From positions 2,503,739-2,567,738 of the forward strand of contig CAXIEN010000093.1 in NCBI GenBank assembly GCA_964023285.1: 64,000 nt of DNA, in the 5' to 3' direction. The notes under the pieces were generated by a model. That model was not told where the DNA came from. It searched no databases and saw only the letters and a program-made list of their open reading frames with translations. Positions 29,730-63,555 of this stretch are shown here, one piece after another; position 1 is the stretch's first letter, and each line of letters begins with the position of its first letter. The translations under genes and the position numbers were made by a program. The DNA is from Larinioides sclopetarius (taxonomy: Eukaryota).

Positions 29730-30075
29730 GTTCTGGCCCCAAGCAGCAAGAGTGGTCGCTAAATGATTGGCCAATGATCGCAATGCTCGGCTAAATCTCG
29801 CCCATATTTCCGAGAGGTCAATATTACGCCGGCGCGACATCGCCCTTTGACTATATTTTTTCCTCGCGCCTCTGATGATCGCCTTTTAATCTAGGCGAGC
29901 TCTGGCGGCGACTGTTTACACACGATCGCTTCAAGTAATCGCCCCAAGGCCGGCGCGATGTTCCAAAAGAATTACTCCCAGGTGGCGCTACGCCCAGATT
30001 CTGTAGCGCAGAAAAATGCGCAGGGGACTTGAACTGTTTTGGAATATCGCGCTGAATGCTTGAAAATACGTTGTT
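29730..30075 (+). repeat. CpG-rich island A with a palindromic double CCAAT box ('GATTGGCCAATGATCG'); inverted partner of 37440-37795
   Basis: 'ccccaagcagcaagagtggtcgctaaatgattggccaatgatcgcaatg…cgccggcgcgacatcgccc…gatgatcgcc…'. CpG content is far above the flanking DNA. Confidence 0.6.
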
Positions 30076-37439: not shown

Positions 37440-37795
37440 AGTATGATGCCGGCAAGTGTTTCGTAACAAATTGTTTTATTGGCTCGCCCATTGATAAAAT
37501 ACATGGGTAATTGATTGGCAACGGGTCGTCCGTTGTCGTAATACACGTCGCAAAATGCTTGGTATCAAGTCGCCCGCGATAATACGCATCGGGAAATGGT
37601 CGGAAAAACTGTCGGAAACAAGCCGCGGCGATCATCGCCCGGCGTTCTGCCGGGGGACAGAACCAATATCGGGACGACGTCGCAGGCGAGGTCGCCCCGA
37701 CCTACCGAGTCATGTAGGGCGATGTTTGGCCAATGATTGGCCAACGATCTTTTGCTGCTTGGGCGCACTGCTTATGCCCTATGAGAAATAAACGA
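37440..37795 (-). repeat. CpG-rich island B, inverted relative to A, with shared motifs
   Basis: The reverse complement reads 'gcgcccaagcagcaaaagatcgttggccaatcattggccaaacatcgccc…gatgatcgccgcggc…', sharing 'cccaagcagcaa.ag', 'attggccaa', 'atcgccc' and 'gatgatcgcc' with island A. Several ATTGG boxes are present. Confidence 0.55.
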
Positions 37796-38005
37796 GAACA
37801 TTTTTTTTTATATTTGTCTTTAAACCAACAGCTTAACAATATGATTGGTATTTCAGATCAATATACCTTTGCCTTCCGGCTTTACCAACTGGGATTTTTT
37901 TGATACTTTGATTGTTAAATGTACCATTCTGCCTCATTTTATAAAATAATATGATGTATTTTATAGAGTGGTTTTTTATGCTTATGAAGTATGTTAATGT
38001 TTCAG

Positions 38006-38160: not shown

Positions 38161-39565
38161 GTATGAACATTTTTTTCAATTTTTTAATTAATCATACCCG
38201 ACTCATAATTCATAAAATTTGTAATTTATATTGTTTTAAAATATAAAGTATAAAATTGTTTCTCTTTAATTTTGCTATATATAAATGCAATTATGAGGAT
38301 TTTTCTGTTCATACTGAATGAAAATTATTAAATTCCTTTTAAATGATGAATAGAATGTTCATTAACTTAAAAGAAGTAGAAATTGCATCTTGCCAATAGT
38401 TTTTATGCAGAAATAATTGTACTGAATATTTAAATGACCCGAAGCTGACAAATTTTGCATATTTTATTATGTTATCGTAATTTAATTATTCACACTTGTA
38501 TACATCTCTCCCCAAAAAACTTTCATATAAATCTATTTGTTTCAATAACTAAACTCTGTATTGTTGCACATTGATTATTATTTTTATATGCCTGCAGAAA
38601 ATTAAAACAATAATCTGAAATTGTATTCAATTTTTAAATGATATTACTCTTGGTATATTGCATCCTTCTGAATTTCAAAGACAAATATCCTAGCATCACA
38701 GTGATTGATGCAACAGGCTGGAAATTTTAATTTCCCAAACTAATTTCATACCTATACTAACTTGATTTCAGGTCTACTCAATAATTTTATTAATGATCAA
38801 TGTCAAATAGGTCTTGCTGTCAATCATACAAGCCCAGAAACAGATAATAAAGAAATCTGACACACTGCTCTGTTTGTTTCATTTTCTAGGTGCTATAAAT
38901 TTGTTACCTCTTAACCACGTTGCTTGTGCAAAAATACGAAGCAGGCTTATTTCTTTGCCGGCATAATTTTGCCTAGTAAAGTCATGCAATGCCACAAAAA
39001 TTAGTTGTTTGTTCATATATTTTCTATAGATGTTTAATACTTATCAATAAAACTACTGTCGACGAAACTGACATGTTAACTTATTCTCAATTTTGGGAAA
39101 TTCGAAATAGCATGGTATACGAGTTATTATTTGTAACCAACTATATCTTGGTATACTTCCTTTACCCATTATGACAATGGGATACTTAACCCAAAAATGG
39201 CGATTCTGAATGTAAAAAATAGACTTCTTGGTAAATTCTAAACTTCTATCGCATGCAATTGTTCAAATGTATTTGTTTCTCAAGATTTCAGTTGTTACTA
39301 TTGGTTCATATATGTTAATACTGCATAAGCCTCGAAATCAGGAAACTAATTATAGATATACCTAAGGGTCTGATAGTATATGAATGTAATTGTATATATA
39401 TTTACTATACAAATATTACTGTTTTTCACTTAAGCCTATTTAATATGTACAGGTTTATGTTAATAAAAATGAATGAATTTTTTTCTGCAGATTTCTAAAG
39501 TATAGAATATAAAAATGCTTCATATTTCAGCCTAAGAAATCTTAATTAATATCCTTTTCTTGCAG

Positions 39566-39700
39566 GGTGAAGAATTCACACTATTTAGACAGTGAAGTAC
39601 TGTGTCTTGATGCAAGCTTGAAAACTGAAACAGTTGTGGCTGGTTTGAAGTCGGGAAATTTTGTCATTATCACCTCAGATAGGAAGAAGACATTTAATAT
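39566..39700 (+). CDS. WD40-repeat protein gene exon
   Basis: Acceptor 'ccttttcttgcag' and donor 'gtatgc'. The CA carried from the previous exon plus G gives CAG, then VKNSHYLDSEVLCLDASLKTETVVAGLKSGNFVIITSDRKKTFN, in the frame of ORF 39567-39773. Confidence 0.7.
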
Positions 39701-40139
39701 GTATGCATTTGTCCTTTTGGTACTTTATAAATTTGTAATAGTTTGCATTTGTTTTATCATTTTACTTTTGTGAATTTTATAACATTGCGAAACTTTGCAC
39801 CGATAAAATTGAAATAAATTCCCTTGTTATTTGTGCATACTTCTGAAATAATTCTATTTCATCATCGAAAATATTTTGGATTTTGAAACAAAAGTTTTAA
39901 TAACATGAAACATAATTGTGTATTATATTTTTTTCCTAAATTTTCTATAGTTGTGAGAACATATGACTATTTAAGGTTGCTTAACTAAATGGTTGCTGTT
40001 TAGTGACTGAATATGTAATTTTTGCATTAGTACTGTCTGGAAGAGTTTCTGTTTAAATAATATTTCAAATAGTTTACTTTTATATGACTGATCTTTGTTT
40101 TGCTAATTTATAGATGTAAAATTATTTTTCTTCTTTTAG

Positions 40140-41110: not shown

Positions 41111-41781
41111 TATGCTGTTGTATTTTTTATGGTCCATCAAAGGTTGAAATAAAATGACATGTGCATTTCTTAACTTATTAAAATTCTTTCAAATAATTAA
41201 GAAAACAACAATTATTTTTGCATGATTTAAATATCTGTTCCTGATGTAAAAAGCTTGGTCTTTTCAAAACATATGCTCTTGAATTATGATGAATAAAGAA
41301 AGTGATAGCTATAATTAAGTTATGAATTGTTGGAAATAGTAATATCAGTTTATTGTAAGGATTTTAAACAGAATTATATACTTACATATAATAAATCTGC
41401 AGGCTGATGATTTTACTTGAAATTCACGAATGAGTTCATTTTGCAGATTTTTATGTGATCTTAAAATGAGCAACCTGCCTTTGTAGAATACAAATTCATT
41501 TAACTTTTATTTGCTGTAAAGGCTCGCCCTACATCAGCTGCTTTTTTTGTTTAAAAGCTTCCTGCTTAACTCATAATAAAATAAATATTCTTTCATTTTT
41601 GACCAAGATGGTGTATATCCATTGCAGTTTGTTATCTAGCAAAAAATTTATTAGAAAAAAACCTGCATTTTTTAAAAATTAATCTATATCCATTATTATT
41701 TCAAATAACGTTATGTTTCTTAATTTTTTGTTAAAGATGTGTGCTCATTAGCTCATATTTATCTTTTTTTTGTTGTTAAAG

Positions 41782-41940
41782 GATACTATTAGAGCTTCAA
41801 TGGAAGAAATTCGGAGCCCGTATCTGGGAAATGTTCCTGTTTTTATAAGTGCTTTCTTTTGTGCAAGTTTTGACAATGTTTATTGTGGTGATTCACAAGG
41901 TTGGTTAAGAAGATATTCAAATACTCCAATATCAAAAAAG
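41782..41940 (+). CDS. WD40-repeat protein gene exon
   Basis: Acceptor 'ttttttttgttgttaaag' and donor 'gtatgt'. Encodes DTIRASMEEIRSPYLGNVPVFISAFFCASFDNVYCGDSQGWLRRYSNTPISKK, matching ORF 41770-41982. Confidence 0.75.
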
Positions 41941-44540
41941 GTATGTGGGAATAATTTTTCTTTTATGCAAAAAGACTGTTGATTTGATGATTATCGTTTG
42001 CACCTATTTTTAATGTAGCAAAGTATTGAAATGTATAGGTTTTGACCTTTATTTACACCAATCCAGAGTAAAGGTATAGGTTTTTTAAATTTTGCAATAC
42101 ACTACTTTCAAGGGTGGGGATGCTTGGGGAGGTGAGAATCCTGTGGGGCAAATCTTAGCATGGCAATTTTTTTTATCCTATTCACATGACAGGCTAGTCT
42201 AGGAAAGAAATAAAGATCTGGCAAAACTCTGAGAGTGTTATCGTTTTCCCCTTCCTCTTGCACAGCAAGTTATATCCCCTGTCGAGAAAACCTTTTCCTC
42301 CTGTCAGAAGACTAACAGCCATGCTTTTGAAATATTCATAGTGCTTGGTTTATCAATTACAGATCGAATATTTATTGACCATCAGCACTATCATACAAAA
42401 TACTAGAATGAAAATAAAATATTTAAAAATTGTGGTGCACACATAATAGTTGAATGAATAAAGAGTATCTAAAATATGTAATTACTCCTATAAGACAATA
42501 AATCTATAAATATTCCAAATTTTCAGCTCCATTTTTTTACAATTTATTTTGCTAATTAGATACCTTTCTGTCAGTTTACACATAATTTCATTTGATCTGA
42601 ATATAATGTGGTTTATCTTCTTAAATATTTGAGGTCTTCAAAAAGAAAGTTAGTAATATTATAATTCATAAAATGCAAAATTTATCCAAGATTTTTACAC
42701 ATAAATTACATAGGAAAAATTCTTGAGATGCAATTTTCAGAAATTCAGTTCTTTTTGATAATGCAGAAAATTATGGTTAACCAAACTCGTGCCTTAGAAA
42801 TCGCAAATCCAAAAAAACATATATTTTGTGCTGAATAATCGTGAATGCAAGAACTTGCTGGGCTATGGCAGGTGTAGAACTGAATGCTATTGAATGAACT
42901 ACTGAATGAAAAATGTTATTCCAACTTCAATAAAGAACATAAGTATAGTATACTAAGAGAGTTTTGAATTTGCTTTTCACCTTAATAATTTCAGAATTGC
43001 ATAGTGTAACTAGGTACTAAACAGTAATAGATATTCTTGACATGGCATAAACTAAAAGACAATTATCCTAAACAACACCCCTCCTGTTAGTTAAGTTAGT
43101 TAGTGTGTGTTAGTTAGTGTCAGTTAACCGAGGTAGTATTGTCCAGTAAAACCTCGCATAACGAGTGTAGTTCATTCTAGAAGTTTACTCTTTATGTAAA
43201 ACAATTTTTTCCATAGAAATTAATGTAAAATACAATGCTGCATTTCATGTCGAAAAAATGCTAAAACATTTTATGTATAAGATCATTAAGGAGCCTGAAT
43301 CGTTTTCATATTATCTATTATGCAGAATCAACCATCATGGAATGTGGATAGCATTTCAGAAATGAAATGTATAATGAGTACTAAACACAGACTGGTGTAC
43401 CCTTTATGTTATCTTTATTTTAAAAAGATACATTTATTACATTATTTCATTGACTCAAATATGTTACATAATCTATGACATAGCATCTCAACTACTATAA
43501 AAATATGGTGCCGAAATAGTTTTTAAAAAGGCATAGTCTTAAATGTCTCAATGTCTTAAATATGCAAAGGATGACTGTTCAAGGTTCTTAAAGTTTTTTT
43601 CTTCAAAATACATTGTGTTATCATAATTGAGTATTACGCAATGAAGTTTCATGTAACAGCCAATTTTACAAGAGAGAAGTTTTTTATCTTAGTGAAATTT
43701 TATATATGCAGGCATAATTGAAGAAAGATGTACCTATTAAATGAACTGTATCATCTGAAAATGTCTCTTCTGTCACTTAAGACATTTATTATTTCAACGA
43801 AATTGTAACCAAATACACCAAATGAGAGAGAGTCTCTGTTTACTAAATAATTTCAATGGTCCATTTCATGGAAGAAGTTAACCAATAAAAACAAGAATAA
43901 GAAAAGGGGTGGTTATATTAGCTTTCTCAGTAGAAGGAGAAAAGTTGATGTTTCAATTGTGTAACGTTATACATTTTAATTTGATTAGATTTAACAATGG
44001 ATTGTTTCTAAATATACTGTATTAGCCAATTTTTTCATACATATGAAAATACATTAAGAAAGGAAATAAGCACAATTAATGAATAACTAATATACTTGAC
44101 AAGTTTTCATAAACAAAAGATATCTTTTGATTAACAGGTGAAATAGGTTGTTGTTAAAGTGTATACATCAGTACTAGATACCTAGTTTTAAAAGATTATA
44201 TTAAAGAAACACTTAGTAGATATGACAATAACACACAAAAACTCTGGGAATTCTTCTCTTCATCATCTTTCTCATTGTTCATTATGTCAAACATCACTCT
44301 TTAAAGGAATAATTTTTTTGAACAGTTTATTTTGATTTTTATGAAAATAATTCTTTTGTTTAGTTTAAAAACAGCTGCTTTAAAATGTGATTTTAAGCAT
44401 AAATTTCTTAAATGATAATATAGAATATAATCTTCTAAGATATTTATTCAATCTGTATGATTAATATTTATTCATTAATATAGTTTTGAGATTGTGTGTA
44501 TTTTTGAGAAAAATTCATTATTTTTTTTTTAATTTTGTAG

Positions 44541-48051: not shown

Positions 48052-51000
48052 TTGCTTCATTCTTCTTTTTTCTGTGTGTGAATGACCAGAAGGTCAGGTG
48101 TGTGAATGATTTGTATAATTCACAAAAAGATTTTTGTGAATTTATTAATCTAATGTGATAACTTTCTTCTAATAAACTTGTCTAAATCTTTTTGTGAATC
48201 TAATTCACAGAAAGATTTGATGCTTTGCTCAATATCAGTTAGGTTGGTTTCCTGGCTTCAGTTTCCGTGATGCTGATCCAATAAATATCACTATGAATGT
48301 TTATTTATGATTTTAATGTACAAAATAAAGATATTTTAAGGAAGTACTTTTAAAAACTGCTGTAAATTTATTCAAAATTAAATTAGAAGATTTCAGATGC
48401 AGATATTCCATTCTTTGTTGTTCTGTCTTTGCCAGCACTCTTTTATATACTAGTACTAATACATCGCTTGTGTGTTGCATTTTTCTTGTTTCTCTTTAAA
48501 CCATTGCGTTCCAAAAGCATTACTTGAGAATCATTAATAAAGAAAAATTGTGTGGTTAGAAATCATTGCATGATTAGGATCTGTTAACAAAAAGTGTAAA
48601 CTTGGGGAATAGATATACAGAAATTCTTAATATATTTTACATAATTTCCTTTCCTCTAATGATTTCAAAATTCATTTAAAAAAGTTTGATTTGAATCAAT
48701 GATATTTACATGAGCTGAATCAATGATATTTTTTGAAGCTGAATCAATGATATTTACATTCTTTATTGCATAAATATGCATGCATAAAAATAACTAAAGT
48801 TATATTGACACATCTAGAAATAATTCTAAAGTTTCTGTATAATAATATCCCACTTTATTAAAGAGGGATTAATGTATTGTAGAAAGAACATATACTTCTG
48901 CTTATGAACAGTTTTTTTCAGATGAAACTGAGAATTTCCTTGTGCTTTGTAAATTTACATAGACAGGGCCAAATTACACATTTTTGTGCCTTAGGCTATA
49001 ACATATTCTGCCCCCCCTAAAAGCTAAAGTAATCTTCAATTAATTATGCAACTAAATTAAAATCTTTATTTTTGTTTATTTATGAAATGTAAAATTTAAT
49101 ACAATCTGCGAATTACATTTCAATTTCTAATTCAAAAATACATTACTTATGAAATAACACAGCATCTCAATATCTACAAGAATACTGCATTGAATTTTTT
49201 GAAACCATCTGAATACCTACTAAAAATTTGTTTGTTTGCACTTTATTTCGTTAACAGGCTAGAAGGGTCATTGACATCTACAAATCTTATTAATTTTCAA
49301 TGTAAAGCAAGAAATTGTAAGGACCACAGAAGTCAAAAGAAAATTTATTTTTTTATATATATTTGATGTAACGAATGTAAATTTTTAAAACTCTTTTATA
49401 TGGTCTTTTAAAATAATATAGAAAAGTTGATATTGTTTGGTTATTTCTTCGGCATATATGTCTCTGTACTGCTGCGACCAAACCCTGGCCTAGGTTGGTC
49501 TTAAGAATGGTTTAGAGGCAAACTTTAAATAATCATTTGTAACCTGAAGAACAGCAGGTCACTGTCCGAAACTGACGGCAACATTCTACTAACCAGCCTT
49601 TTTGGCGTTCATTTGCAAAATTTGGTGCAAAAATGATTTTTTTGGCTAACTGAACTCAACATCAATATAGATGCTTAGATATTCCTGCCATGTCTTTGTA
49701 TGGATTTTCAACACTTTGAATTTAGATTTGTTTTAACTCTATTATTTAACAATCTTTAATGCTAAATGTCAAATGTTTTAGTCAACAAGTGTATATTTAA
49801 TCTATAAATTTTGTAATTGAAGTAAATATTTTTATAATAAAATAACTTTTTCTAATTGAAGCAAATGTTTAATCACGTCGGGGTTTGAAAATTTAATTTA
49901 AAGACTATTTAATTTATTAAAATTATTTCAAAAACTCTTCAGTTTTCACAGTGCATGCAACTAACAAATTAAAAAGTGTAAAATTCCTTACCATTCCATG
50001 CTTTTATTCCTCTCTCAGTTTTCATGTTTTCACATATAATGGCTATAAACTAATTTTTGGTTCGAATCACCAAATGTCATGTTACCTATTTGTGAAAAAA
50101 AATCTTTCACAAGTACTTATTTAAAAAAAAATTCAAACATTGTTTGTTGATTTTCTTCATTTTTGATTACTGTCCAACACTTTGTATGCATAACTTGTAC
50201 ACCATTCAAACCATTTCTTTCAAATAAAAACCAATTACTTCATTTCTTTCAAATAAAAACATCAAAATTTCATAAAGATTTGTACAACCAAAAAATTGCA
50301 ATTAATTTTATTTCCATGCAAATCAGTAAATTTATTTTCTGATTTCTAATTAAAGTTCACTGTTATTTAATATCAAAGAAAAGACTATTACATCCCAAGA
50401 GACAATGGTTTATTATGATCTTATTATATAGAATATCAACGAAACTTGAGTATTTTTGGCCCATTTCCATCAGGAGATTTAATTCAAAATGCAAAAATAA
50501 TGTTTATAATTCAATTATTTTGTCAAATTTACCAAAACAAGTTCCCAAAAATTCTTATTCATACTGCTTATTATATGCATTCAAACAATTTTCTTAAGGA
50601 AATGTCCAACTTCACATTTTGCTAGATAAAAATATGAAATGTATATAATGTACATTTTTTCCCTATAAAAATAAGTACTATATAAACTCGTAATGACTAT
50701 ATAATGCATATTCTTTTGTTTATTGATCCTAATATTTTACAAAATTAGGGTCAATAAACTTGGAAATACACCACAGAATAAAGTTTTATTAGATACCAAG
50801 TAAATTTTCTAGGTCCCCGTCCGAGTTAAAACTATACTGTTCTAATAAAGATCAAAAGTTATTAAAGCATATTATCTAATATTTATTAAGTTAATGGACC
50901 AATAATAGATTTACTTTTGTTAAAAAAATTATAGCTTATAAAATAAGAAAATATGACAATTCTGCAAATTAAATGAAAGAGTTAGCTATTAGTTATATTT

Positions 51001-54000
51001 AGTGTTTACAATGGGATAATATAAGCGAATGTATAGGCTGAAATTTTTTTATATTGTTGATTTTTTACATTTCATTGAGTAATACCTTTTACATTATATT
51101 CAAAAGAGTTCCATAGTATTTTAAAATATTTTTTTATTAGCGTCTAAAGGCTCACATACATCAAAATACTTTATTAATGCCTAGAATGTTAAAACAAAAA
51201 TTCAGCGTTTATGAAGAAAATAAAATGTAATCTTAAGCTGTTAAGTTTGTTAACAATATATAAAATTATTTTTGTCACTCTCATCATGAACAGTGAAAGA
51301 TTTGCAATCTTGTAATAAGAATCTTATGACATAAAAAATAAAGTTAATAAGCCAGGACGCATCACCATGTGTTTTAAAGGCATTGTATTTTTATTAAATA
51401 TATGTATTTAAATTTAACAGTGCTGTGCAGCAATCAATATTACATCCACAACATTAAAGTTTCTTGGATGCCAAATTGACAGTGTAAAAACGAACATGGA
51501 AGGCCTAATTTTGTCTCCAGAAAACTGTGGCTAACAGAAAAACCTCTGTATATATATTTTAATGATGTTTCCAGATTTTAAAGATAAATATGGGCATTCA
51601 AATAAGATGAAATCAACTGTTGGTGCACGTAAAATTTCTTTTAACATTGTTTAGAAAGAAGCAGAGAAAAGTATATTGACGTTATCCATGGTCTAGATTC
51701 TGAGAGGGTTTTTTTTTCTTTCTTTACTATACTTTCTTTAATATACAAAAATGAAAAAGAAAATTTGGCAAGAAAAGAATGAAAAAGAACTAAAGAAAGG
51801 CTGTTTTCCATAATTATGAATTAAAGCCATCACTTCATAATTGAAACTTCATGTAATGTTGAGGACTTGTCGTTGCAAAACCGAAACAAGTTTAGGTGAT
51901 AATAAACATACACTCAAAAATTATTGCAATGTTTAAATAAATAGCAGCATTCAAATTGGAATGTAATACATTATTCATCTTGATTGCAGCAAATCAGATA
52001 AATATTTTAATGTTTTTTGACAGAATTATTTTACTATTATCATTACTGTAGTTACATTTCAACCACCTCGGTATTTGACTAGTTAACATTTACAAACGTA
52101 CTGGAATTAGTATTTTTTTCTTTCAATTTTTAAGTTTAAATAGAAAGTCAAGTGCTCTTCTGCGACGAATTTGAATGTCATGATACTTCCATCTCGCAAC
52201 ATTATAAGGTTTGTCCCAAATGTCTTTTCACAAGATGCGCTACACGCTTCTCACTAAAAACAGAGAATCACCACAATCCAATCCATACAATTACTTTCCA
52301 CGAAAGAACGAACAACCCCTTTACTTTTCTGAAACCTTGTAACATGTCTATATATGCACCCCTACCCCCAAACACCTATAGAAGAGCATGCATGTCTCCT
52401 TTTCAATGACATCAATTGCTTTCTTCCATGGGCAAAATCTCCTTCCTTTTAAAGATAGGCCTTTGTTTATTCAGCTTTATGACAGTAAAATTAAACTAAA
52501 AAAAGACCAGGTCTAAAAGCCATCTCTCACAAGAAATGCACCCTTTTTACACAAAAGGATGCGACACTTCAATATTTCCGTTGACTTCTGATAAAAACAA
52601 GAATGGCATCAGGATTTTCCTGACGGGGGGGGGCGAATTCCTCAGATGGGGTGGCAATTTCTCCGACAGGGGGCATAACCTGCTGTATAGGGGACGAATG
52701 CAATGGAATTGGTTTCAAATTTTCGCCATATTATTGTTTAACAACTACAATTGAATACCTCGTAGAAAAATGTACCCCAACAGGGGGTCTAATGATCCCC
52801 GACGGGGGACCATGACCCTCCCGGTGCCTCCTCTGGAGCCACATGTGGATAGCAATAAAAACCCTAAATGAGTATTAATGCTGGAGTTTCCATAGAAGAG
52901 GTATCTTTTTTCAGTAGTCAGAAGAATGTCCTAAGGTCTCTAGGCCAGTTTCAACGTTTTGGAGAAACTCTGGCTAATACGAGTGGTTGAATTTCGACGG
53001 ATGTAGAACGCTGGACAGGGCTATTTCAGAAAAACTTACTCCATAGAGAAATGTTGAGGGGCTCCGCTTTCCACCGGACAACTTTGCAAGACCACTACTA
53101 AAGAGCTTTTTTCTTTCAGTGTTTCGTCCTACTGTTTTCATTCAAACCTTAATTTCTTAAAGAGAAAAAGTAGAAACTTTTCTGTGAATTGAACTAAGGC
53201 TACAATAGCTCAAACTCCCCACCACCTTAGCACTGTGATGTGTGTTGCATATATTTCGAGGCACCTTAGAGAGGCGACCACCTCTAACACCTATGCGGAA
53301 AACCACCACTGATAATTTGTATATCCTAGCTGCAACAACAGAGACACTACCTGAGCACTGATCTACCAATCATAATTACTGTAGTTAATCATCTACAAAA
53401 GCTGTTTTAGATTGTGGTTAGTCTCCTCGGTGCAAACAGCATCTGCAATAGGTATGGATGGAAGTTCGTTCCCGTTATTCAGTAAAACCATGACCCACGG
53501 GAAAGAGAAGGGCTGCTTGCTGAAGGAATGACTCATCACCAATGGGCGATGGGTTACCAATGCTTAAAAAGTCGCTTTCTTTTAAAATTTTCGTTTACCA
53601 TTTCTCAAAACTATTTAATGGCCATAACAACTTTGATTTAAAAATTACTTATTTATTTGTTTCTCCAATTGGTTAATATATATATATATAACTATTCTAA
53701 CTTTTACAATACCAGGCATTTTTATCTCACAATATTACCTTGACTTATCTTTGAAATTCATTGTGTATATAAAAACTTTTCTTCTCAAATGTGATAACTT
53801 AAAAGAAAAGATAATTTGTAGAATATTATAATGGTAAAATAGAAAATCAATAATCACTATAAACAAGGATAAAAATTAAATTTGCAATAAAGATATTAAT
53901 TCAAACTTATGACCTTATTTGTGGAATATGATTATCGATGAATTGTTAAAATACTTGCTGTTGTATTTTTTTTTATCAGGATTTATAATAATAACAAATC

Positions 54001-54901
54001 TGTGAACTAAATATGTGTTAAAGACTAAGAAATTTAACTTTTAAGCTACTAAATAAAAGCTTCTCAAATGTGGTAATTTTTAAGAAAAGTTGATTGTTGT
54101 AATATTATCATAATGTAAATAGAAAATCAAAACTCATTAGAATCAATGATATAAACTAAATTTGTAATCAAATAGGATATTAGTTCAAACTTTTGACATT
54201 ATATATGCAATGCAAGTATCACTGGCATGTTATTAAATTGCAAATAATGAGCTAAAAATTGTGCAAAGGAATAACAAATTTAAAGTTTAAGTTAATACAT
54301 AAAAATTAGTTAGAAATTAATAATATGCCAATTGAATAAAAGACAAAAAGGTTTATATAAATAATTTTATTTATTTCCATGAAGTAAATAACAGTAGCAA
54401 ACAATACAATTATTCAGAATATCATACACAAAATTTAAAACTATAAAAAAAATACACATTTCATGTCAAATATATTTTTTTTCTTATTTTAAGATTACAA
54501 AGGTGAACAATTTCACTAACCTTTAAAAATTGAACCTATACTTTAAAACTATACTTTGGAAGTGTATAATTCAATTATTTAAAATATAATTTTTTTTCAC
54601 CCTTAATTTAGTTTTGTTTGTTTCCCCTTAAACATTTACATATTTCTTTTTTGAAAACTGTAATACCAAGCATTTTTTTCTGTCAATTTATTAGTTTTCT
54701 TACTAGATTTCTTTTCCTCAGATAAAGAATTCTTAAAAAGTGTTCTTTGTTTTCTTTAATTCTTAGAATCTACAGTTATATCATTTTCACTTAACAATAT
54801 AGTTATTTAATAAACTATTTGTTGCTGACCTTAGAATGATTAAAGACAAATATCATGCCCATTCACACAAACATTAAAAGAAAGGAAAACATCTTTTGTT
54901 A

Positions 54902-57900
54902 CACTGTTAAAACTGAAGGTGACAAACCGGCACCTTTTGGTCACCTAGGGTGAAAAGGCAGTACCATTTGGAACCTTAGGGTGCTTTAGAGGCTTGGAAA
55001 TGTGGTTGGGGTGCTGCTTGGCACCCCACAGGGTGAAAGAAGCTAATAAGGGTGCATTTGACTTTATATTTGTAGAAATGTGGCACCTTACAGGGTGCCC
55101 AACTCCTTGCGCATGCGCTTTTATACGCACTGAGTAAAAGAACTCGTAACGAACACTCAAAAATTTCCGTATTCTCAGTGCTAAACGTCTTTTCAATGCC
55201 CGTTTTCCCCTTTTTACGAACTCATCCCTTCATTGCCGTAAGAAACGCTCGAGCAAGATGTACCGCTGAGACTTGCGCATGCGCGAAAAGCAAGCAACCG
55301 TCAGATGCAAAAAAGCAATGGCGTCGCGTTGTTTTGATGTGTTCTGTATGTTTTGCCTATTAACATTAACTTCGCTTACGAATTCGTTGTAGTTATTTTT
55401 AAATATAAAACATGTACAATGTTGACTTAATTAAGAGCAAGAGCAGCAAATTCGTTTTCTTTTCTGTTTTCATACGCCCAGATTTTAGCAGCAACACGAT
55501 CCGTATTTTCAACAAGAACTCGGATTGTGATCTTCGAAGAAAACCGGAATTAAGTAAGTACTTTTAACTAAATATTTACATTCTTTTCTGTGAATATGAT
55601 ATATAAATTGAAAGTTGAAATAGAGAATAATGTATATATATTCATTGTACTTGTAAATATAGAATAGTTGACTTCGGAAATTTATTAGCGTTGTTGCTAT
55701 ATTATTGCTTTTTGTATCCTCAGTGATTAAAAAAAAAGATAAGATGACTTGCAAAATGAGGTGCATACTGCATGAACTCCATTTTAGCAAAATTGAAATA
55801 TATTTAATTGATTAATTTGTAGCTAGAGGCAGTATGACATTGAGTCTTTTTTTTTAATATGAATCTTTACCCTTAACTCTAAAAAAAGTGACAATTTTTT
55901 TTAGTGAAATATTTCATTTATTGTTTAAAGAGTGTCTCAGACTTTAGACGATGGCTTCATTTTCACTAGTTAGATATTTTTTACCCTAAGCTAACAAAAA
56001 TCTGAATTTTAAACTTAATTGAGTTGTTCAGAAGTCATTGCAATTAAGAAAAAAAAAAAAAACTACAAATTGAGGAAATTCATGATTTTTCATAAAATAA
56101 TTTTTAACATTTTTGGTTTATGAATGGGATTAGTGAAGATATTCTTATACTAAAGCAATGAGTGTCTAATTTAATACCCGGAAATTATTATTAATCCCAT
56201 GGAATTTATAAAAAAAGCAGATAACATGAAAAATTAGATTTGTGCACTTTGGCTTGAATGACTCACTAGATGTGCATTTATTCTTACACTATTTATTTTA
56301 TTCAAATGAGTTTCAAGTTATAATCTCTGGATATATGAATAATTTTTATGAGAAACAGTATAAAAATGCCTCCTCTTATTATAAAATGTTCTTAGTTAAA
56401 ATTTTCCAATGTTACTCCCTGATGACAAATGCACCCCTTTTCAATATTTGCTATAATATATAAAAGTGGGCAGAGTATAGAAAGTCTTCTTAGGATTAAG
56501 ATTAATATGCTTTTACAGTATTTTTTTAAAACTACAATAAGAAACTTAGTTCTATTAATTCATTCAAATTCATTTGCTATAGTGAATATTTGACAGTTTT
56601 TATTTATATACCCTTTGGCAGATTTTTATTATGCTTTCTGTGACATTAATATTCATCAAAACCTCTCCAAAAAATGTTTAGTCCATTTATAAATTCTTAA
56701 TTTAACAATCTCGGTAATTCCTAAATAAAGTAAAATATCTCATTTAACAAATTCAGCTTTATTTAGTTTTTAAATAAAAGAATTAATTTAAGTATATGAA
56801 AAAGAAAACATATAACGATTTACTTAAAAAAATATAAAATGTTTAGCATGTATTATATTTTAACTATATTGTACCTTCGCGAAGAATGCTGAGCCAATTT
56901 GACAGATTTGCTGAGGTTTGCGGAAAAGCTCATAAATATCATTGATAGAGGAATAATTTTTACAAATGCTTGGCACTTCTGTATGTAAAAATATTTGAGA
57001 CAAAATATTTTAACCTCATTGTTTTGGCACAGAATAATGCCTCATGTGGGAAAAGTTATGCTAAAATAACTCCTTCATAGAGACCTTTGAAATTGCCATT
57101 ATAGATCAAATATACAAATGCATACTTGTCCAGTATCTTAGTGGAGGGAAGAAGTCAGCGTAACGTACATGGGGAGGATCGTTTTTGTTTGATCCTGAAT
57201 TGCCCTCAAATTAAAAAAATTCTTCGGAACGATCTCGACTTATTTACACAAATATGTCAATTCTCCAAAAAATATAATTTTTTTACTGAAGTGAAAATCA
57301 TTCTACAGGAAACTTGTGCTATTCTGTGGCATTGTTGCTGTGTCAACAATCTTCTGCCCCGGGATTAATATAATTATTCAATTTATTTGAAAATGTAAAA
57401 TTTTAAACTGTAACTGTAAACAGCAAATGAGATTTTCAGCTTCTGAATATTATCAATTTTATTTTATATAGTAAGGTAGGGCAGTAGTAAATTGATGTCG
57501 TTTGAATATGTTGTAGTTTTTTTTTACCTGTAAGATTCATACAAATAATTTTTTGGAATGCCTTATTTGTCGCTACTGTATAAATATGTTTTTATATTAA
57601 CAGAAAAACATCAGAATTGCCTAGATTTATCATAGTTCAAATGTCTTTTTTTATTTTTAGTTTGATATTTATCTGAGCCTGTATTATTATGATTTATCTT
57701 TCTGAGCCTGATGTAGTTTAGGAACATGTATTTCTTTTTTCTAGCTGACACATTTTGTCAAATTATGGTATAAATTATAATAAAAGTTAAAATAATTATT
57801 GAAATAAAAAAAAAATGTTTTTTTTTCAATTCTTTAAGTTTTTGATTATTGTATTTTTAATCCAAAGACTTCATGCGAAACAACGAGACGATTTAACGGA

Positions 57901-60900
57901 TAATATTAACTTGAATTATGATTATATTTTCTAAACAACAAAATAACATAATACGATGAGGGATATTGTAAACAAAATCATTAATTTATTAAAATATTTA
58001 TATTCTTAAAAGATAACATCATTTGATGTATGTTTCTTAGTCCTTTTTCTATGAGATTGGACTGCAGTTTTAGAAGATATATCTTCTAATCTAAATTTTA
58101 ACACTATGAAATCTTTTTAAGATGAAATGTTATTGGCTGCAATGGAAACAACTACTGGATATCAAGAAAAAAATGCCTGAATAGCAACTACATGAAGTAC
58201 AAAAATAATGGTATCTTTCAATTTTTATGTATAAAATTAAATCTTAGTAGAAACCAAGAGTTAATCCTAATAAATAAAAATGTTGTAATGAATATTGGTT
58301 TGGCTGATTACCGAATATTTTGCAGCCAAATATCTACTTTTCGAAAACATTTCTTTTTTTAATGGTAAATAATATATTTCTTAAATTTTAAATAAAAAAT
58401 TAATGATTTATTGGTTTTATTAAATATTAATGCCTTGGTTTATTTTGTATTTGTCACCTTAATTCTAAGAATAAGATATTGTTGCTTTCACAAATCTGAA
58501 TAAATTATATTTGGGTTAAAGTTCAGATAACGGTGCGTGGTTAATTCTAACCTATAAATAAGATGATTCTTTGACGCCAAGAATACGATAGATTGGCGAC
58601 GTGTAATCATTGTTTGGTATGCGCAGAAATGTCTTAAATTTTGTCAGGTTTGCGCAAGAAGACTTGGAATTCTGTTTCGCGTTCGTTGATTGCATTTCAT
58701 TTGTCATGTGACTTAAAGATGCATTCTGATTGGTCGAGTTCTTAGAATTTTCATTTTAAAACAATATCGTTTGCTTTTCAGAATTTGGAATTCGGGTTTT
58801 TAATTTTCGCCAGTTAATAGATGATTTAGTTTCGCTAAAGCAGAAAAGGTGAGTGAAACGTTAGTGTTTCAATTGATAATTTGTATTTTTAATTTCCTAA
58901 ACTTACCATTAACTAAGAGGTTTTCCAGTAACTAACTGAAAATGAATTTTAAAAAAGAACGAAGGATTCCATACGTTCACTTTATTAGCGAAGCTACGAT
59001 TGGCCCACTATGCTGAAAGCGAAGCCCCTGAAGTTTTTTTTAGTTCAAAAAAATTGCCCGGTACACGTTTGCAATGCCGCAGGCATTGCGTGCACAGCGG
59101 AAAAAAATTCATCATGTTTTAGAAATAATTGCGTTCTCAGAAGAGAGAAGAAAAAAACAATAACCAAAAAATCAGCGGAATTTGCGCGCGAGAAACGAAA
59201 AACAAATTCTACAATCGCATTCCACCGTCGCAAAGCTATCACTCTATTGGCGACATAAAGTTAGCGACCATTTTCGTAGAAGTAGCCGCGCACCGTTATC
59301 TGAACTTTTACCTATATTTGTATATACTTTTACCTATATTATATTAATTAGATATTTTTTAGATATTATATTTTTTAGAAAATATAACCTAGATATGATA
59401 GAATTTTGCTTGCCATTCTTTATATTTTTCATTTAAATATAAGAAATTTCCCCAATCAATGTCAAGTCATTTCCTTTAAAATATATATTAATTATTCTCC
59501 GTCACTTCTATTTGCCACCCAGTCAAATATATGTGCTTTATAATCACACCTACAGTTAAAAGGTTAAAAGTTATTTAACTTCATAATGCTTACTCTACTC
59601 TTAAAATTTAATGAATGTTAGATTTTTTATAAGTATATTGAAATGTAATTCTGTAATATAAATAAATTCTAACTCTTCTTAAGTGATTCTTTGTTAAATA
59701 TATATTTTATAAATATTATTCTAAATTTATTTGAATGAATATATCTTTAGCATTTGTCAAAATAGCTATTGTATATGCTATGTATTCTTGCTTGCATTAT
59801 AGGCTTTACAATCATAAGAAATACATAAAATTATTAAATTCATTTGTAGGCTATATATTTCATAGTTTTAAATATATATAAATTGTATAAAGCTATATCT
59901 ATGTAATTTAAAAGTGAGTAAATGATATTTTTTAGATGAAAAATGTAATAAAATATAATTCTGAAATATTTTTATCTTAAAAAATTACTATCTGGAAAAT
60001 ATACAGCCAAATATCTGCTGAGTATTTGGTTAGCCGAATATTTGGCAGAAAAACCAAATACTCGCTACATCCTTAATAAATATATATATTTATTTTAGTA
60101 AAAGTAGATTCATCGTGTTTTCTCACAAATTATTTAATGTCATGATGCATTGATTTAAATTGGAGGATATTTACAAATGTGTTAAATTGTTGTTATAAGT
60201 AAATATTTTGCTTTTTTAAAAAATTATCTTTTGTAGTTTAGCTTAAAATTTGTTTAGTGTTCTGTTAAAGTAATTAAATTGAATGCTGCATTTTAATAAT
60301 AACGACAAAATTATTGTAGCTTTATCATCTTAATATTATAAATAATTTCTTAATAATTCAAAAGGTTACTGGAATTTGTTTATAAAATTTTTTAAGTATC
60401 TAAAGTACTTTCTTATACATTTGTATTTATAGGGTGAATACCGGCCCAAACAGACGAGATCAGGCTTCAGCATTTTCTTGAAGAAAAAATCCTTCGGCAT
60501 CAAGAGGATATGTGGATATTTGTCATAATGTAAAGAACACAGACCATTCAATAAATATGTTGTATATATCTGTTTTGTCTTTATTGTGTTCACACCCATC
60601 TGGAATTTTTTTTAAAGAATTGATAAATTGATTTTCTAAATACTTTTATCTTTTGGAAGTGTTTCTGTTGCCTGAAAGAATAATATATTTTTTTTAATGC
60701 TTGACCTGTATCTATTTGGTAATACTATTGTGTGTGCCTGTATTTTATTTAAAAGTACCACAATCATTAAAATTATCTACTAACTTTTATTTTTATATTT
60801 AAAAGCTTAAAGATTAATTTGGTATTTAATTGTGTTGTATTTAGGTTAATGCATAAAATGAAATGTCAAAAATACAATTTATTTTTGTTTTAAAAAGTAC

Positions 60901-62068
60901 AAAATAAAAAAATTGTATTAACAAAATTTTAAATGTAATTCATCAGCAGTATTAATAAAAAAGTATTTTTTTCCTATTTCTGCCAGGAATTGACTGAGCA
61001 ATAATATAACTACACATTTATGATATTTAGTAACAGTATATTACAGAATTTATATCTGAAAAAGTATTCGTTTCTCTCGTCAATATTTCATTTATCTATA
61101 ATTTTAATTTATTATTTTAAATCAATCTTCTCATTTTTACATACACAAACTTTTTTCTAGCAGCAGTTTTATTGTGTGATGTGATGCAAGCAACTTAGTA
61201 TCGAACTTCAATAAAAAATGGCCAAGAAAATAATTGAACAGTGAAAAATTATTTAAAATAGATACCTTTAATTAATTTTATGTGTGAAGTTTAAAAATTT
61301 ATTAATATTTCTCAAATTCAATCAAAAGTATCCTTTATAACTTATTATTTTAAATACGTGCTTTTAAAAAACATTTTTGATAATTGCTTTAGTTCTTGAA
61401 AAATGATTAAAAAAATTAATATAATCATGAAAAGTTTATTCATAAAGAATAAATATATGCATTAATATTTTAGCGCGAGAAGGAATAAAGTGATCTAAAA
61501 GCAGAATAGGGTAAATTTTTTAGAGAATGGTGTTAAAAACATAATACCAAGATAAAAGGTAAGTAAATATTGAATGGAAATTTAAAAAAAAATATTTAAA
61601 AACCTTTTATTCATTTAAAATTTAATCTATTATATATACTGAAAGTAAAATGGGCAAATATATTATATCCTCTGCATCTTAGTTTTCTAGAAATATTGAA
61701 TATGCTTTTAAATAAAAGGCACTTGAATCTGAATTAAAAGATACAATGTGCCTCTTAATTTTCAAAGGCACAAAAATTCAAAATGTGCCTCTTATATCAG
61801 AGGCAGTTTTAAGAGTGTACATTGAGGGTGCTACTAGGCACCTTGAATTAAGGGTGCCGTCCTTTCACCTTTGTGGGGTGCCACTAAGCACCTTGAATTA
61901 AGGGTGCCGTCCTTTCACCTTTGTGGGGTGCCACTTAGCACCTTGAAGTAGGGTGCCAATCTTTCACCCTAGTTAAGGGTGCCAATTTTTCACCCTTAGG
62001 GGTGACGCTGGTGAGACAAGCTTTTCACCCCTTAAAGGTGCCAAATGTCACCTGTAGTTTTAACAGTG
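54902..62068. mobile_element. 7.2-kb element bounded by about 35-bp terminal inverted repeats with flanking TA duplications; putative non-autonomous DNA transposon with subterminal repeats
   Basis: Left end 'TA|CACTGTTAAAACTGAAGGTGACAAACCGGCACCTTT'. The right end, reverse-complemented, reads 'TA|CACTGTTAAAACTACAGGTGACATTTGGCACCTTT'. Both ends are followed by arrays of 'AGGGTGAAAG…GGCACCC' subterminal repeats, and the right side carries about 2.5 tandem 58-bp units at 61819-61990. No intact transposase ORF was found inside. Confidence 0.6.
58527..59300. repeat. Foldback: roughly 90-bp inverted repeats flanking about 600 bp of CpG-rich sequence, nested inside the 7.2-kb element
   Basis: 58527-58620 reads 'aagttcagataacggtgcgtggttaattctaacctataaataag…gacgccaagaatacgatagattggcgacgtg'. 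59215-59300 is its inverted partner ('…caccgtcgcaaagctatcactctattggcgac…cgcgcaccgttatctgaactttt'). The interior holds a TATAAATAA box at 58553, CCAAT/ATTGG boxes, and a 'aaaag|gtgagt' splice-donor-like site at 58848. Confidence 0.55.
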
Positions 62069-62989
62069 TACTAAAATATTTTTTCTACAAAATTAACAAC
62101 TTCGGAATGATGATTCAAAACTGGAATAAATTTATCCTCATATTTTTTGCTAATTAGCTTTTTTACTACTGTATATGTTTGGATAACAGTATTTACTACT
62201 ATTTTAATAGGATATAATATAAGCCCTCTATCATTTTAATCTATTAGTTTTCCATAAATCTTTTTCCCAATCTGAGCAATGTAATAAATACGAAAATGCA
62301 ATAAATCATTGTTTATACGATATTTGTTGCAAGGTCCCGCAATTCAACTTTCCACCAGGCCCCACTTTTTCTAAGACCTGCCATGGAGAACAGCTTTTAC
62401 GGATCATTCACGGACAATTCATAAGCGGTCTATGGTAAAGAAATCAGATAATTCTCGGACAACCCATAGACAGTCTATGGTAAAAACAGATAATTCTCGG
62501 ACAATCCATAGACGGTCTATGGTAAGGAGACCACTCATGATGTCAATCTAATGCTGAGGAATGGACTGTCGGCCTGTACCATGCAATATCGCTGTTTCAT
62601 TTCGAACCGCACAAAATGCTTTGACCCAACAAAAGGAAAACGCTCATTATCGCTGCAGACCTCACATAGTCTCTGAAATTATTTAGATTGACGTTTGCAA
62701 CAGGAAATTTCGATTTTAATCCACGACTGCTGATCAGTTGTGTAAATATGGCTTAGAGAGATAAAAATGGCACTCTGCGCTTTAACACTGTACAAAAACT
62801 TCCCTTCAAAATGGATCCACTGTTTTATACAATCTACGATTATAGGTTTATCGAACTAAAGCGCTTGAACAGAAAATACAAATCATTGAAAGTCGGACAA
62901 CAGTGGAGTTAATCTAACTTCCATTCACTGGTTATTCCAGTCTTGGTTTAATCAGTATAATAAACATTAAAATTTTTCGTTGAACACAC

Positions 62990-63073
62990 ATTGTCATCTG
63001 ACCACGGTTCAAAATTATGAGGTCTGTCCGTAAATAGCTCTCGTGTGGCTTAAAATCGGGACGTTAATATAAC
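62990..63073 (+). mobile_element. 5'-truncated SINE copy (central-domain family)
   Basis: 'ttgtcatctgaccacggttcaaaattatgaggtctgtccgtaaatagctctcgtgtggcttaaaatcgggacgttaatataac' is collinear with the 3' part of the copies at 63286 and 24058. Confidence 0.6.
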
Positions 63074-63285: not shown

Positions 63286-63555
63286 TATATTAACGTTCCG
63301 TTTTGTTGCAACACAAGGGCTATTTTTGGATGAAACTCGTAATATTGAACCATGGTTGGATGATGAGAATGACACCCGAGCTTGCACCCCTCTCTCCAAA
63401 TCTTCGGGCCACACCAATGGGAAGGCGTTTGGCCATTGTGTATTATTTAGCTTGCGATGAGCACCATACACGGCGGATCTTTGGCGGAATCAGGTTTCGA
63501 TCCTGAGGCCCTAGAGCCGAGACCATACTACTTAAGCCACCATGGTCAAGATCGC
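63286..63555 (-). mobile_element. Full-length tRNA-derived SINE (central-domain family), in head-to-head arrangement with the 62990 copy
   Basis: The minus strand reads 'gcgatcttgaccaTGGTGGCTTAAGTAGTATGGtctcggctctagggcctcaGGATCGAAACCtgattcc…ggggtgcaagctcgggtgtcattctcatcatccaaccatggttcaatatt…acgttaatataac'. The A-box and B-box motifs are in capitals. The ORFs on both strands at 63280-63657 are artefacts of this SINE. Confidence 0.65.

What the first reader, a model, noticed from the sequence alone, without database searches (positions are those of the whole stretch)
54900..62070. 7.2-kb TIR-bounded element with TA duplications and promoter-like CpG-island cargo
The terminal 35 bp match almost perfectly ('CACTGTTAAAACTNNAGGTGAC…GGCACCTTT'). 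Each end is flanked by TA and followed by 'GGTGAAAG/GGCACCC' subterminal repeat arrays. The interior has no recognisable transposase. It does contain a CpG-rich block with a duplicated 'TTGCGCATGCGC' motif (55107-55286), whose 'GCGCATGCGC' core is the vertebrate NRF1 consensus, and a foldback holding a TATA box, CCAAT boxes and a GT donor (58527-59300). This could be a non-autonomous DNA transposon that has captured promoter or first-exon sequences, or two unrelated insertions that happen to end in the same subterminal repeats. The 'CACTG…' terminus with TA flanks resembles Tc1-like 'CAGTG' ends, but the match is imperfect, so the superfamily is open.
Basis: seen in the sequence. Interest (0 to 1): 0.7.

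Follow-up and report, generated by a model that had tools for sequence, protein, structure and literature searches.

The report
Decayed non-autonomous DNA transposon copy
This is one ordinary, non-coding copy of a cut-and-paste DNA transposon (about 7.2 kb, inserted at a TA) in an AT-rich, repeat-rich animal genome, and the "promoter-like cargo" is partly a second small transposon nested inside it, so nothing here is unusual.

Summary
Positions 54902-62068 are bounded by an imperfect 35/36-bp terminal inverted repeat (30 of 36 columns match, the first 13 nt exactly). TA flanks both ends. Each end carries an array of a dyad motif, GGTG-N8-9-CACC. This motif occurs 11 times in the two ends, once elsewhere in 64 kb, and 0.7 times in shuffles. 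Six-frame Pfam scans find no protein domain inside, although the same method detects piggyBac, mariner and WD40 fragments elsewhere in the window.

The best reading is a single non-autonomous class II transposon, mobilised in trans. CAC...GTG termini, a 2-bp duplication and asymmetric, stem-loop-forming subterminal arrays fit CACTA/EnSpm-like (CMC) elements slightly better than Tc1/mariner. The superfamily cannot be settled without other copies or a transposase.

The "foldback with TATA/CCAAT/GT" is a nested 789-bp element (58519-59307). It has 31-bp inverted repeats (28/31) and a perfect TTA duplication, so it is Harbinger-type and not captured cargo. The CpG block with two GCGCATGCGC palindromes is real, but similar CpG-undepleted blocks occur at five other places in the window. 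Capture of a host promoter is untested.

No other copies could be retrieved, because the source genome is not in any searchable collection. Interest is low.

The parts
54900..54901 (.). Left TA, putative target-site duplication
   Evidence: Read. It matches the TA at 62069-62070, and no longer duplication fits.
54902..54937 (+). Left terminal inverted repeat: CACTGTTAAAACT-GA-AGGTGAC-AAACC-GGCACCTTT. It contains the first dyad unit, at 54918-54934.
54902..55100 (+). Left subterminal region. It has 7 GGTG half-sites but only 2 intact GGTG-N8-9-CACC dyads (54918-54934 and 55010-55025), so the array is degenerate.
   Evidence: DNA fold z = -1.8.
55100..55700 (+). CpG-undepleted block (o/e about 1.65) directly inside the left array. 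It holds two perfect CTTGCGCATGCGC copies (55106-55118 and 55272-55284) and a GTAAGT at 55554-55559. Possibly the family's own promoter or leader, or acquired sequence.
   Evidence: Sequence.
58516..59310 (.). Nested 789-bp element (58519-59307) with 31-bp TIRs AAGTTCAGATAACGGTGCG.GG.TA.TTCTA (28/31). TTA flanks it at 58516-58518 and 59308-59310.
   Evidence: (I1). CpG o/e 1.3-2.1.
61779..61819 (-). Inner copy of the terminal repeat: TA-CACTCTTAAAACTG...GGCAC.TTTTG. It matches the left TIR plus TA at 30 of 41 columns, lies 251 bp inside the outer right terminus and has the same orientation.
   Evidence: (D4)
61820..62033 (-). Right subterminal array. Eight GGTG-N8-9-CACC dyads lie here at about 25-bp spacing; the ninth lies within the right TIR at 62037-62052. 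The array includes a 50-bp tandem of 2.9 copies (two copies 96% identical). It forms a row of 7-bp-stem hairpins.
   Evidence: DNA fold z = -4.0, with 0 of 200 shuffles folding as well.
62034..62068 (-). Right terminal inverted repeat
62069..62070 (.). Right TA, putative target-site duplication
   Evidence: Read
54902..62068 (+). Whole element, 7,167 bp, 28% G+C, with no detectable coding capacity

Best explanation
Positions 54902-62068 are one copy of a non-autonomous cut-and-paste (class II, TIR) transposon that integrated at a TA dinucleotide in an AT-rich, palindromic target.

Inferred mechanism. A transposase encoded elsewhere in the genome recognises the 35-bp terminal repeats. It, or an accessory DNA-binding protein, also recognises the reiterated dyad sites GGTG-N8-9-CACC in the roughly 200-250 bp inside each end. 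The ends are paired, the element is excised at the CAC.../...GTG termini, and it is re-inserted with a 2-bp (TA) duplication.

This copy is no longer intact. The left array is degenerate, the right array has expanded by a local 50-bp tandem duplication and carries an inner duplicate of the terminus, and a Harbinger-type miniature element has inserted into the interior.

The structural hallmarks fit the CACTA/EnSpm-Mirage-Chapaev (CMC) group best: CAC...GTG termini, a 2-bp duplication, asymmetric stem-loop-forming subterminal repeat arrays, a size of several kb, and a CpG-rich block just inside one array. A Tc1/mariner-type (IR/DR) family is the second choice.

Shown: the ends, flanks, repeat arrays, nested element and absence of coding capacity. 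Inferred: that it is a single insertion, that it is mobilised in trans, what the dyad sites do, and the superfamily.
For: - The terminal 22-mer occurs only twice in 64 kb, in inverted orientation, against 0 in shuffles. TA is present on both flanks.
- Dyad units cluster in the two ends: 11 there, 1 elsewhere, shuffle mean 0.69. GGCACCC gives 8 of 9 hits in the ends against 0.85 expected.
- The arrays are mutually inverted and asymmetric, and the right one folds into hairpins (z = -4.0). [quoted passage not shown]
- Pfam finds no domain in any frame at E<=1. The same library picks up a 43-118 aa piggyBac remnant, a mariner remnant and a WD40 exon in this window.
- The count of open frames is like that of other 7-kb pieces of the window.
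- phmmer of the best-looking open frame against 1.84 billion representative proteins gave 0 hits.
- Animal CACTA-related elements make 2-bp duplications (PMC1636069). They include multi-kb non-autonomous families, such as Hydra EnSpm-4N1_HM at 5.8 kb and 441 copies (PMC4298943).
- The CMCT clade has 5'-CA..TG-3' termini and 2-5 bp duplications, including a TA-specific lineage (PMC12730594).
Against: - The superfamily call rests on structure alone.
- TA is the classic Tc1/mariner target, and CACTG differs from Tc1's CAGTG at a single base.
- The right end has an outer and an inner copy of the terminus 251 bp apart, which resembles the IR/DR layout of Sleeping Beauty-type elements (PMC7827188).
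- TA on both flanks has a chance probability of roughly 0.1 in this composition.
- The described animal TRC/EnSpm elements start with CCC, not CAC (PMC1636069, PMC4298943).
- The 7.2-kb length may not be the mobile unit if the interior grew by later insertions.
Confidence: 0.7

Rival explanations
1. Same kind of object, different superfamily. It is a non-autonomous Tc1/mariner element of the IR/DR type, mobilised by a paired-domain DDE transposase that binds an outer and an inner site in long (about 250 bp) inverted repeats and integrates strictly at TA.
For: - TA on both flanks.
- The terminus CACTG is one base away from Tc1's CAGTG.
- The right end has an inner copy of the terminal roughly 40 bp, 251 bp inside the outer one and in the same orientation. 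This resembles the outer and inner DRs of the ~220-bp Sleeping Beauty TIRs (PMC7827188).
- A weak counterpart, CACTCAAAAATTT, lies 252 bp inside the left terminus (9/14 identity to the right inner copy, about p = 0.03 for that position).
- A mariner remnant shows that the superfamily is present in this genome.
Against: - The left inner site is not convincing.
- Nine reiterated short dyad sites per end and marked left/right asymmetry are not typical of IR/DR elements, which have two sites per end.
- 7.2 kb is far above the usual 1.3-2.4 kb (general knowledge of the superfamily).
- No Tc1/mariner transposase remnant lies inside.
- TA duplications are not exclusive to Tc1/mariner (PMC12730594).
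Confidence: 0.25
2. The mobile unit was a short miniature element of about 0.45-0.5 kb, made of the left ~200 bp plus the right ~250 bp. It was later split by one or more unrelated insertions, so the 7.2-kb 'interior' is secondary filler and not cargo.
For: - One nested insertion is demonstrable (58519-59307, with a TTA duplication).
- The interior is heterogeneous in G+C and CpG content.
- The right array ends exactly at a TA followed by a terminus-like sequence (61804-61819). This could be the edge of an inserted relative.
- The window is repeat-rich.
Against: - No matching left terminus or duplication for such an insert exists near 55100. The best candidate, TA-CG-CACTGAGTAAAAG at 55124, shares only about 10 of 16 bases, and CACTGAG occurs 9 times in the window.
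- No interior segment recurs elsewhere in the window.
- No retroelement or transposase domains were found inside.
Confidence: 0.2
3. The left-end CpG block, or the foldback, is a host promoter or first exon captured by the transposon (transduplication). The element therefore spreads regulatory modules.
For: - Two perfect GCGCATGCGC palindromes, the NRF1-type consensus, lie 166 bp apart and are the only ones in 64 kb.
- CpG o/e is about 1.65 against 0.58 genome-like background.
- A GTAAGT donor-like site lies at 55554.
Against: - The foldback is an independent nested transposon, not cargo.
- CpG-undepleted blocks of similar strength occur at five other places in the window.
- The block has no open reading frame with any homologue.
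- Its position directly inside the subterminal array is equally what a transposon's own promoter and leader would look like. This is recalled from the maize En/Spm literature and was not tested here.
- No parental locus could be searched.
Confidence: 0.1
4. These are two independent insertions, or solo ends, that happen to face each other.
For: A third, solo terminus-like 17-mer exists at 49937-49953 (16/17 identity, 0 of 300 shuffles). Isolated ends of this or a related family can therefore occur.
Against: - Cut-and-paste elements insert with both ends. Neither end has its own inward partner terminus.
- The two ends are in the correct inverted orientation.
- Both are flanked by TA.
- The 15 nt outside the TAs are mutually palindromic at 11 of 15 positions (empirical P about 9e-4), as expected for the two halves of one symmetric target site.
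Confidence: 0.05

Closest known systems
CACTA / En-Spm elements and their non-autonomous derivatives (CMC group). This includes the animal 'TRC'/EnSpm families such as Hydra EnSpm-4N1_HM (Spongebob) and the TA-duplicating 'ESTA' lineage.
   Same: - Termini 5'-CAC...GTG-3'.
- A short (2-bp) duplication.
- Short TIRs followed by reiterated, asymmetric subterminal repeats that form stem-loops (PMC2613891).
- Multi-kb non-coding derivatives mobilised in trans (PMC4298943).
- TA duplications are known in an EnSpm-like lineage (PMC12730594).
   Different: - The terminus is CACTG, not CACTA.
- The described animal TRC elements begin with CCC (PMC1636069).
- The plant elements make 3-bp duplications.
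- ESTA was described in fungi.
- No Transposase_21-type gene is present here, and none could be linked to this element.
IR/DR-type Tc1-like elements (Sleeping Beauty, Minos, Paris, Tc3)
   Same: - TA target duplication.
- A terminus one base away from CAGTG.
- An outer and an inner copy of the terminal sequence about 250 bp apart in the right end (PMC7827188 for the layout).
   Different: - Nine dyad repeats fill the space between the outer and inner copies.
- The left end lacks a convincing inner site.
- The length is 7.2 kb.
- There is no DDE_3 or HTH_Tnp_Tc3 remnant inside.
Tourist-like / PIF-Harbinger miniature elements (comparison for the nested 789-bp foldback only)
   Same: - A 3-bp TTA duplication.
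- 31-bp TIRs.
- Small and non-coding.
- The reconstructed target GG-TTA-CC is palindromic around the duplication.
   Different: No transposase or Myb-like gene is present. Chapaev3 elements also make TWA duplications (PMC4079192), but they have CAC...GTG termini, which this element lacks.

Membership tests
Tc1/mariner | TA target-site duplication | tested here: met
   TA at 54900-54901 and at 62069-62070. This is a single copy, so specificity for TA is not shown.
Tc1/mariner | DD(E/D) transposase with a paired-like or HTH DNA-binding domain, in the element or in an autonomous partner with the same termini | tested here: not met
   No Pfam hit in six frames at E<=1. The mariner remnant at 8.1-8.5 kb has no matching terminus nearby. 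A partner elsewhere in the genome cannot be tested.
Tc1/mariner, IR/DR subgroup | Outer and inner transposase-binding repeats in both long inverted repeats | tested here: inconclusive
   The right end has them: an inner copy 251 bp inside the terminus, 30 of 41 identity. The left end has only 9/14 identity at the symmetric position, about p = 0.03.
CMC (CACTA/EnSpm-Mirage-Chapaev) | Termini 5'-CAC...GTG-3' | tested here: met
   CACTG... at 54902 and ...CAGTG ending at 62068. Hallmark as given in PMC4079192 and PMC12730594.
CMC (CACTA/EnSpm-Mirage-Chapaev) | Short duplication of 2-4 bp | tested here: met
   2 bp (TA). Duplications of 3, 4, 5 and 8 bp are excluded by the flanks.
CMC (CACTA/EnSpm type) | Reiterated, asymmetric subterminal repeat motifs able to form stem-loops | tested here: met
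   2 intact dyads on the left against 9 on the right, versus 1 elsewhere. Fold z = -4.0 for the right end and -1.8 for the left. Compare PMC2613891.
CMC (CACTA/EnSpm-Mirage-Chapaev) | Transposase with Transposase_21 / C2C-H(3-4)H signature | tested here: not met
   None inside the element. An autonomous partner cannot be searched for with these tools.
Transib | 5-bp target-site duplication with a CACWATG-type heptamer terminus | tested here: not met
   The flanks TGTTA and TACTA differ. CACTGTT resembles the heptamer only loosely.
PIF/Harbinger-ISL2EU (large element) | 3-bp TWA duplication (2-bp TA in some related lineages) | tested here: not met
   TTA vs TAC. TA-duplicating relatives (PHISTA, PMC12730594) cannot be excluded without a transposase.
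hAT / P / Mutator / piggyBac | Duplications of 8 bp / 7-8 bp / 9-10 bp / TTAA | tested here: not met
   None of these lengths gives matching flanks.
PIF/Harbinger-type miniature element (nested 58519-59307) | TIRs plus a 3-bp TTA/TAA duplication, small and non-coding | tested here: met
   28 of 31 TIR positions match. TTA at 58516-58518 and at 59308-59310. No Pfam hit.
Gene- or promoter-capturing transposon (Pack-type transduplication) | Interior segment with a parental, non-transposon copy elsewhere in the genome | not testable with these tools
   The source genome is absent from every searchable collection.

The most novel reading that the evidence does not exclude
The element belongs to an undescribed animal lineage of EnSpm-like (CMC/CMCT) transposons that integrate strictly at TA and use a dyad GGTG-N8-9-CACC site array. 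Its CpG-rich, NRF1-palindrome-bearing block next to the left array would then be a portable, methylation-resistant promoter that the family has spread through the genome.
Probability: 0.08. Interest if true: 0.4.

Novelty: new member of a known kind. Interest (0 to 1): 0.12.

Why it matters
It matters mainly for annotation. The 7.2 kb should be masked as a DNA transposon with a nested miniature element. Its TATA, CCAAT, NRF1-like and splice-donor-like motifs should not be read as a host promoter without transcript evidence. If many copies exist, the dyad-site arrays and the TA target would help place the family, which may turn out to be an animal EnSpm-like lineage with TA duplications. The CpG block could then be tested as a transposon-borne promoter. 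Nothing in the single copy is surprising to a transposon specialist.

Tried and rejected
1. Other copies through spurious ORFs. A search with a 94-aa open frame across the left end found nothing. An exact look-up of 10 window ORFs in the 15-billion-protein collection found none. The genome is therefore not in that collection, and locus retrieval was impossible.
2. Exact scans for the 22-nt terminus. The metagenome and prokaryote-genome scans gave one hit each. Both lie in bacterial-type sequence of higher G+C, with no similarity beyond the pattern, so they are chance matches. The viral contig scan gave none.
3. Literature search for the terminal 12-mer returned only unrelated primer sequences.
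4. Rfam found no family at gathering thresholds in the whole window. Only two sub-threshold chance hits appeared in the element. The CpG blocks are therefore not known RNA genes, and there are no tRNAs.
5. Hidden coding capacity. The excess of open frames of 75 aa or more over mononucleotide shuffles turned out to be a general property of the window. phmmer of 57105-57365 gave 0 hits.
6. Host identification. The WD40 exon found no word-sharing homologue. The piggyBac remnant's best named relatives are hymenopteran PGBD4-like proteins at only 61% identity. The host is probably an arthropod, but this is unresolved.
7. A second nested element bounded by CACTGAG/CTCAGTG (55128-55725) was rejected. 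The 7-mer occurs 9 times in the window and similarity does not extend beyond it.
8. An RSS/Transib-like reading (CACTGTT-13-ACAAACCGG on the left end) was rejected. The right end lacks the nonamer-like part and the duplication is not 5 bp.
9. A paralogous empty site was sought in the window and not found.

Full report
**Context.** The window is 29% G+C and CpG-depleted (o/e 0.58). It is eukaryotic and repeat-rich. Pfam recognises a WD40 exon at 29153-29494 (+), a frameshifted piggyBac transposase remnant at 2.1-2.8 kb and a mariner remnant at 8.1-8.5 kb (-). The piggyBac fragment's best named relatives are hymenopteran PGBD4-like proteins at 61% identity. The WD40 exon and ten exact ORF look-ups found nothing. 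The host is therefore probably an arthropod whose genome is absent from the searchable collections.

**Checking the observation.**
- The pattern CACTGTTAAAACTNNAGGTGAC matches only at 54902 (+) and 62068 (-), even with three mismatches allowed. No shuffle produced a match.
- The aligned terminal repeat is 54902-54937 against 62034-62068. Thirty of 36 columns match and the first 13 nt are identical. It is clearly real but imperfect.
- TA lies immediately outside both ends. Duplications of 3, 4, 5 or 8 bp do not fit.
- GGCACCC occurs 9 times in the window, 8 of them in the two ends, against 0.85 expected.

**The subterminal repeat unit.** The underlying unit is a dyad, GGTG-N8-9-CACC.
- Two intact copies lie in the left 200 bp, alongside five further GGTG half-sites.
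- Nine lie in the right 250 bp at about 25-bp spacing.
- One occurs elsewhere in the window, and shuffles give a mean of 0.69.
- The first unit sits inside each terminal repeat, at nt 17-33.
- The right array contains a recent 50-bp tandem duplication at 96% identity. It folds into a row of 7-bp-stem hairpins (z = -4.0). The left array is degenerate (z = -1.8).

**The interior.** No Pfam family reaches E<=1 in any of the six frames. Fragments of 43-118 aa from the other decayed transposons in the same window were detected, so this negative result is meaningful. The longest stop-free stretch is 100 aa, which is within shuffle expectation. The number of 60-75-aa open stretches is the same as in other 7-kb pieces of the window. 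phmmer of the most protein-like stretch against 1.84 billion representatives gave nothing. Rfam and ARAGORN find no RNA genes. No interior segment is repeated elsewhere in the window.

**The two 'promoter-like' blocks.**

*The foldback is a nested transposon.* It spans 58519-59307 (789 bp). Its 31-bp TIRs are AAGTTCAGATAACGGTGCG.GG.TA.TTCTA, matching at 28 of 31 positions. A perfect TTA lies on each side, at 58516-58518 and 59308-59310. The reconstructed target, GG-TTA-CC, is palindromic. This is the signature of a PIF/Harbinger-type miniature element. Its TATA box, four ATTGG boxes, AAG|GTGAGT and high CpG content (o/e 1.3-2.1) belong to that insertion and not to cargo captured by the large element.

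*The left-end block at 55100-55700 is real.* It holds two perfect CTTGCGCATGCGC copies 166 bp apart, which contain the only GCGCATGCGC sites in the window. CpG o/e is about 1.65, and a GTAAGT lies at 55554. However, CpG-undepleted blocks of similar strength occur at 0.3-1.7, 14, 21.5, 29.7 and 37.4 kb. The block has no homologue-bearing ORF. It also sits exactly where a transposon's own promoter and leader would be, directly inside the subterminal array. That arrangement is recalled from maize En/Spm and was not tested here. Capture of a host promoter is therefore possible but unsupported.

**Extra anatomy.**
- The right end carries an inner copy of the terminal roughly 40 bp, including a flanking TA. 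It lies at 61779-61819, 251 bp inside the outer terminus and in the same orientation. It matches the left TIR at 30 of 41 positions.
- The symmetric position on the left (55154) shows only 9/14 identity (about p = 0.03).
- The 15 nt outside the two TAs are mutually palindromic at 11 of 15 positions (empirical P about 9e-4). This suits the two halves of one symmetric AT-rich target.
- A solo 17-mer at 49937-49953 matches the terminus at 16 of 17 positions (0 of 300 shuffles). It lacks TA and the dyad repeats, so it is possibly a relic of a related element.

**Interpretation.** The simplest account is a single non-autonomous class II element. It would be mobilised in trans by a transposase that recognises the terminal repeats, with the dyad arrays serving as additional protein-binding sites for end pairing. 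It is now decaying and has been secondarily invaded.

Two independent insertions are unlikely. Neither end has its own inward-facing partner, the orientation and flanks agree, and the outer flanks form one palindromic site. A short miniature element later split by insertions remains a live rival (about 0.2), given the proven nested insertion and the TA-plus-terminus junction at 61804-61819. No matching left junction exists, however.

**Superfamily.** TA duplications are not diagnostic.
- Animal CACTA-related elements make 2-bp duplications (PMC1636069, PMC4298943).
- The CMCT clade has CA..TG termini with 2-5-bp duplications and includes a TA-specific EnSpm-like lineage. Harbinger relatives with TA duplications also exist (PMC12730594).
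- Chapaev and EnSpm termini are invariably CAC...GTG (PMC4079192).
- CACTA elements have short TIRs followed by asymmetric, stem-loop-forming subterminal repeats that bind an accessory protein (PMC2613891). All of these structural features are met here.
- For Tc1/mariner, the TA flanks, the near-CAGTG terminus and the IR/DR-like right end (PMC7827188) count in favour. The multi-site arrays, the asymmetry and the 7.2-kb size count against.

I put CMC-like at about 0.45, Tc1/mariner at about 0.25 and other or unknown at about 0.3. Transib, hAT, P, Mutator and piggyBac fail on duplication length.

**Verdict.** The transposon reading holds, the cargo reading does not, and the superfamily stays open with a lean towards CMC rather than Tc1. 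This is an ordinary, degraded non-autonomous DNA transposon with a nested miniature element, and interest is low. Settling the family needs the source genome: the number and pairing of copies, an autonomous partner and an empty site.

Noticed in passing
window 49937-49953 (-): A solo 17-mer, CACTGTGAAAACTGAAG, matches the left terminus of the element at 16 of 17 positions (0 of 300 shuffles reach this). It has no TA flank and no GGTG..CACC repeats inside. It is possibly a relic end of a related element.
   Followed up: partly
window 54885-54899 and 62071-62085: The 15 nt outside the two TAs are mutually palindromic at 11 of 15 positions (empirical P about 9e-4). This suggests a symmetric AT-rich target site, or less likely a terminal repeat that extends outward.
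   Followed up: partly
window 1530-2780 (+): A frameshifted piggyBac-type transposase remnant (PF13843). Its best named relatives are hymenopteran PGBD4-like proteins at 61% identity.
   Followed up: partly
window 8125-8469 (-): A mariner-type transposase remnant (PF01359, partial DDE domain).
   Followed up: partly
window 29153-29494 (+), with candidate exons at 39546-39770 and 41752-41979: A WD40-repeat exon (PF00400, E = 3e-13) of a + strand gene. No word-sharing homologue exists in the 5.8-billion-protein collection. The transposon may lie in or downstream of this gene.
   Followed up: partly
window 29600-30300 and 37300-38000: The two strongest CpG islands in the window (G+C 0.43-0.49, CpG o/e 1.2-1.8). 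Both are stronger than the blocks inside the element, and their nature was not determined.
   Followed up: no
window 62402-62526: A 42-bp tandem repeat of 2.9 copies just right of the element. Each unit contains the palindrome CCATAGAC(G/A)GTCTATGG.
   Followed up: no
window 62994-63070, 63287-63363 and 24368-24440: A roughly 75-bp sequence present three times at about 75% identity. Two of the copies form an inverted pair 290 bp apart. This is probably another small repeat family.
   Followed up: no
window 63370-63500 (+) and 12518-12937 (-): These open frames (TPELAPLSPNLRATPMGRRLA... and ...VVMWKLGKGISSGAALPIRPRLSARAPPEILSGG) resemble, from memory, repeat-derived 'hypothetical proteins' common in spider and other arthropod assemblies. 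Pfam found nothing for the second.
   Followed up: no
window 53781-53927 and 54060-54211: A direct repeat of about 150 bp at 77% identity in the CpG-free, very AT-rich left flank of the element.
   Followed up: no
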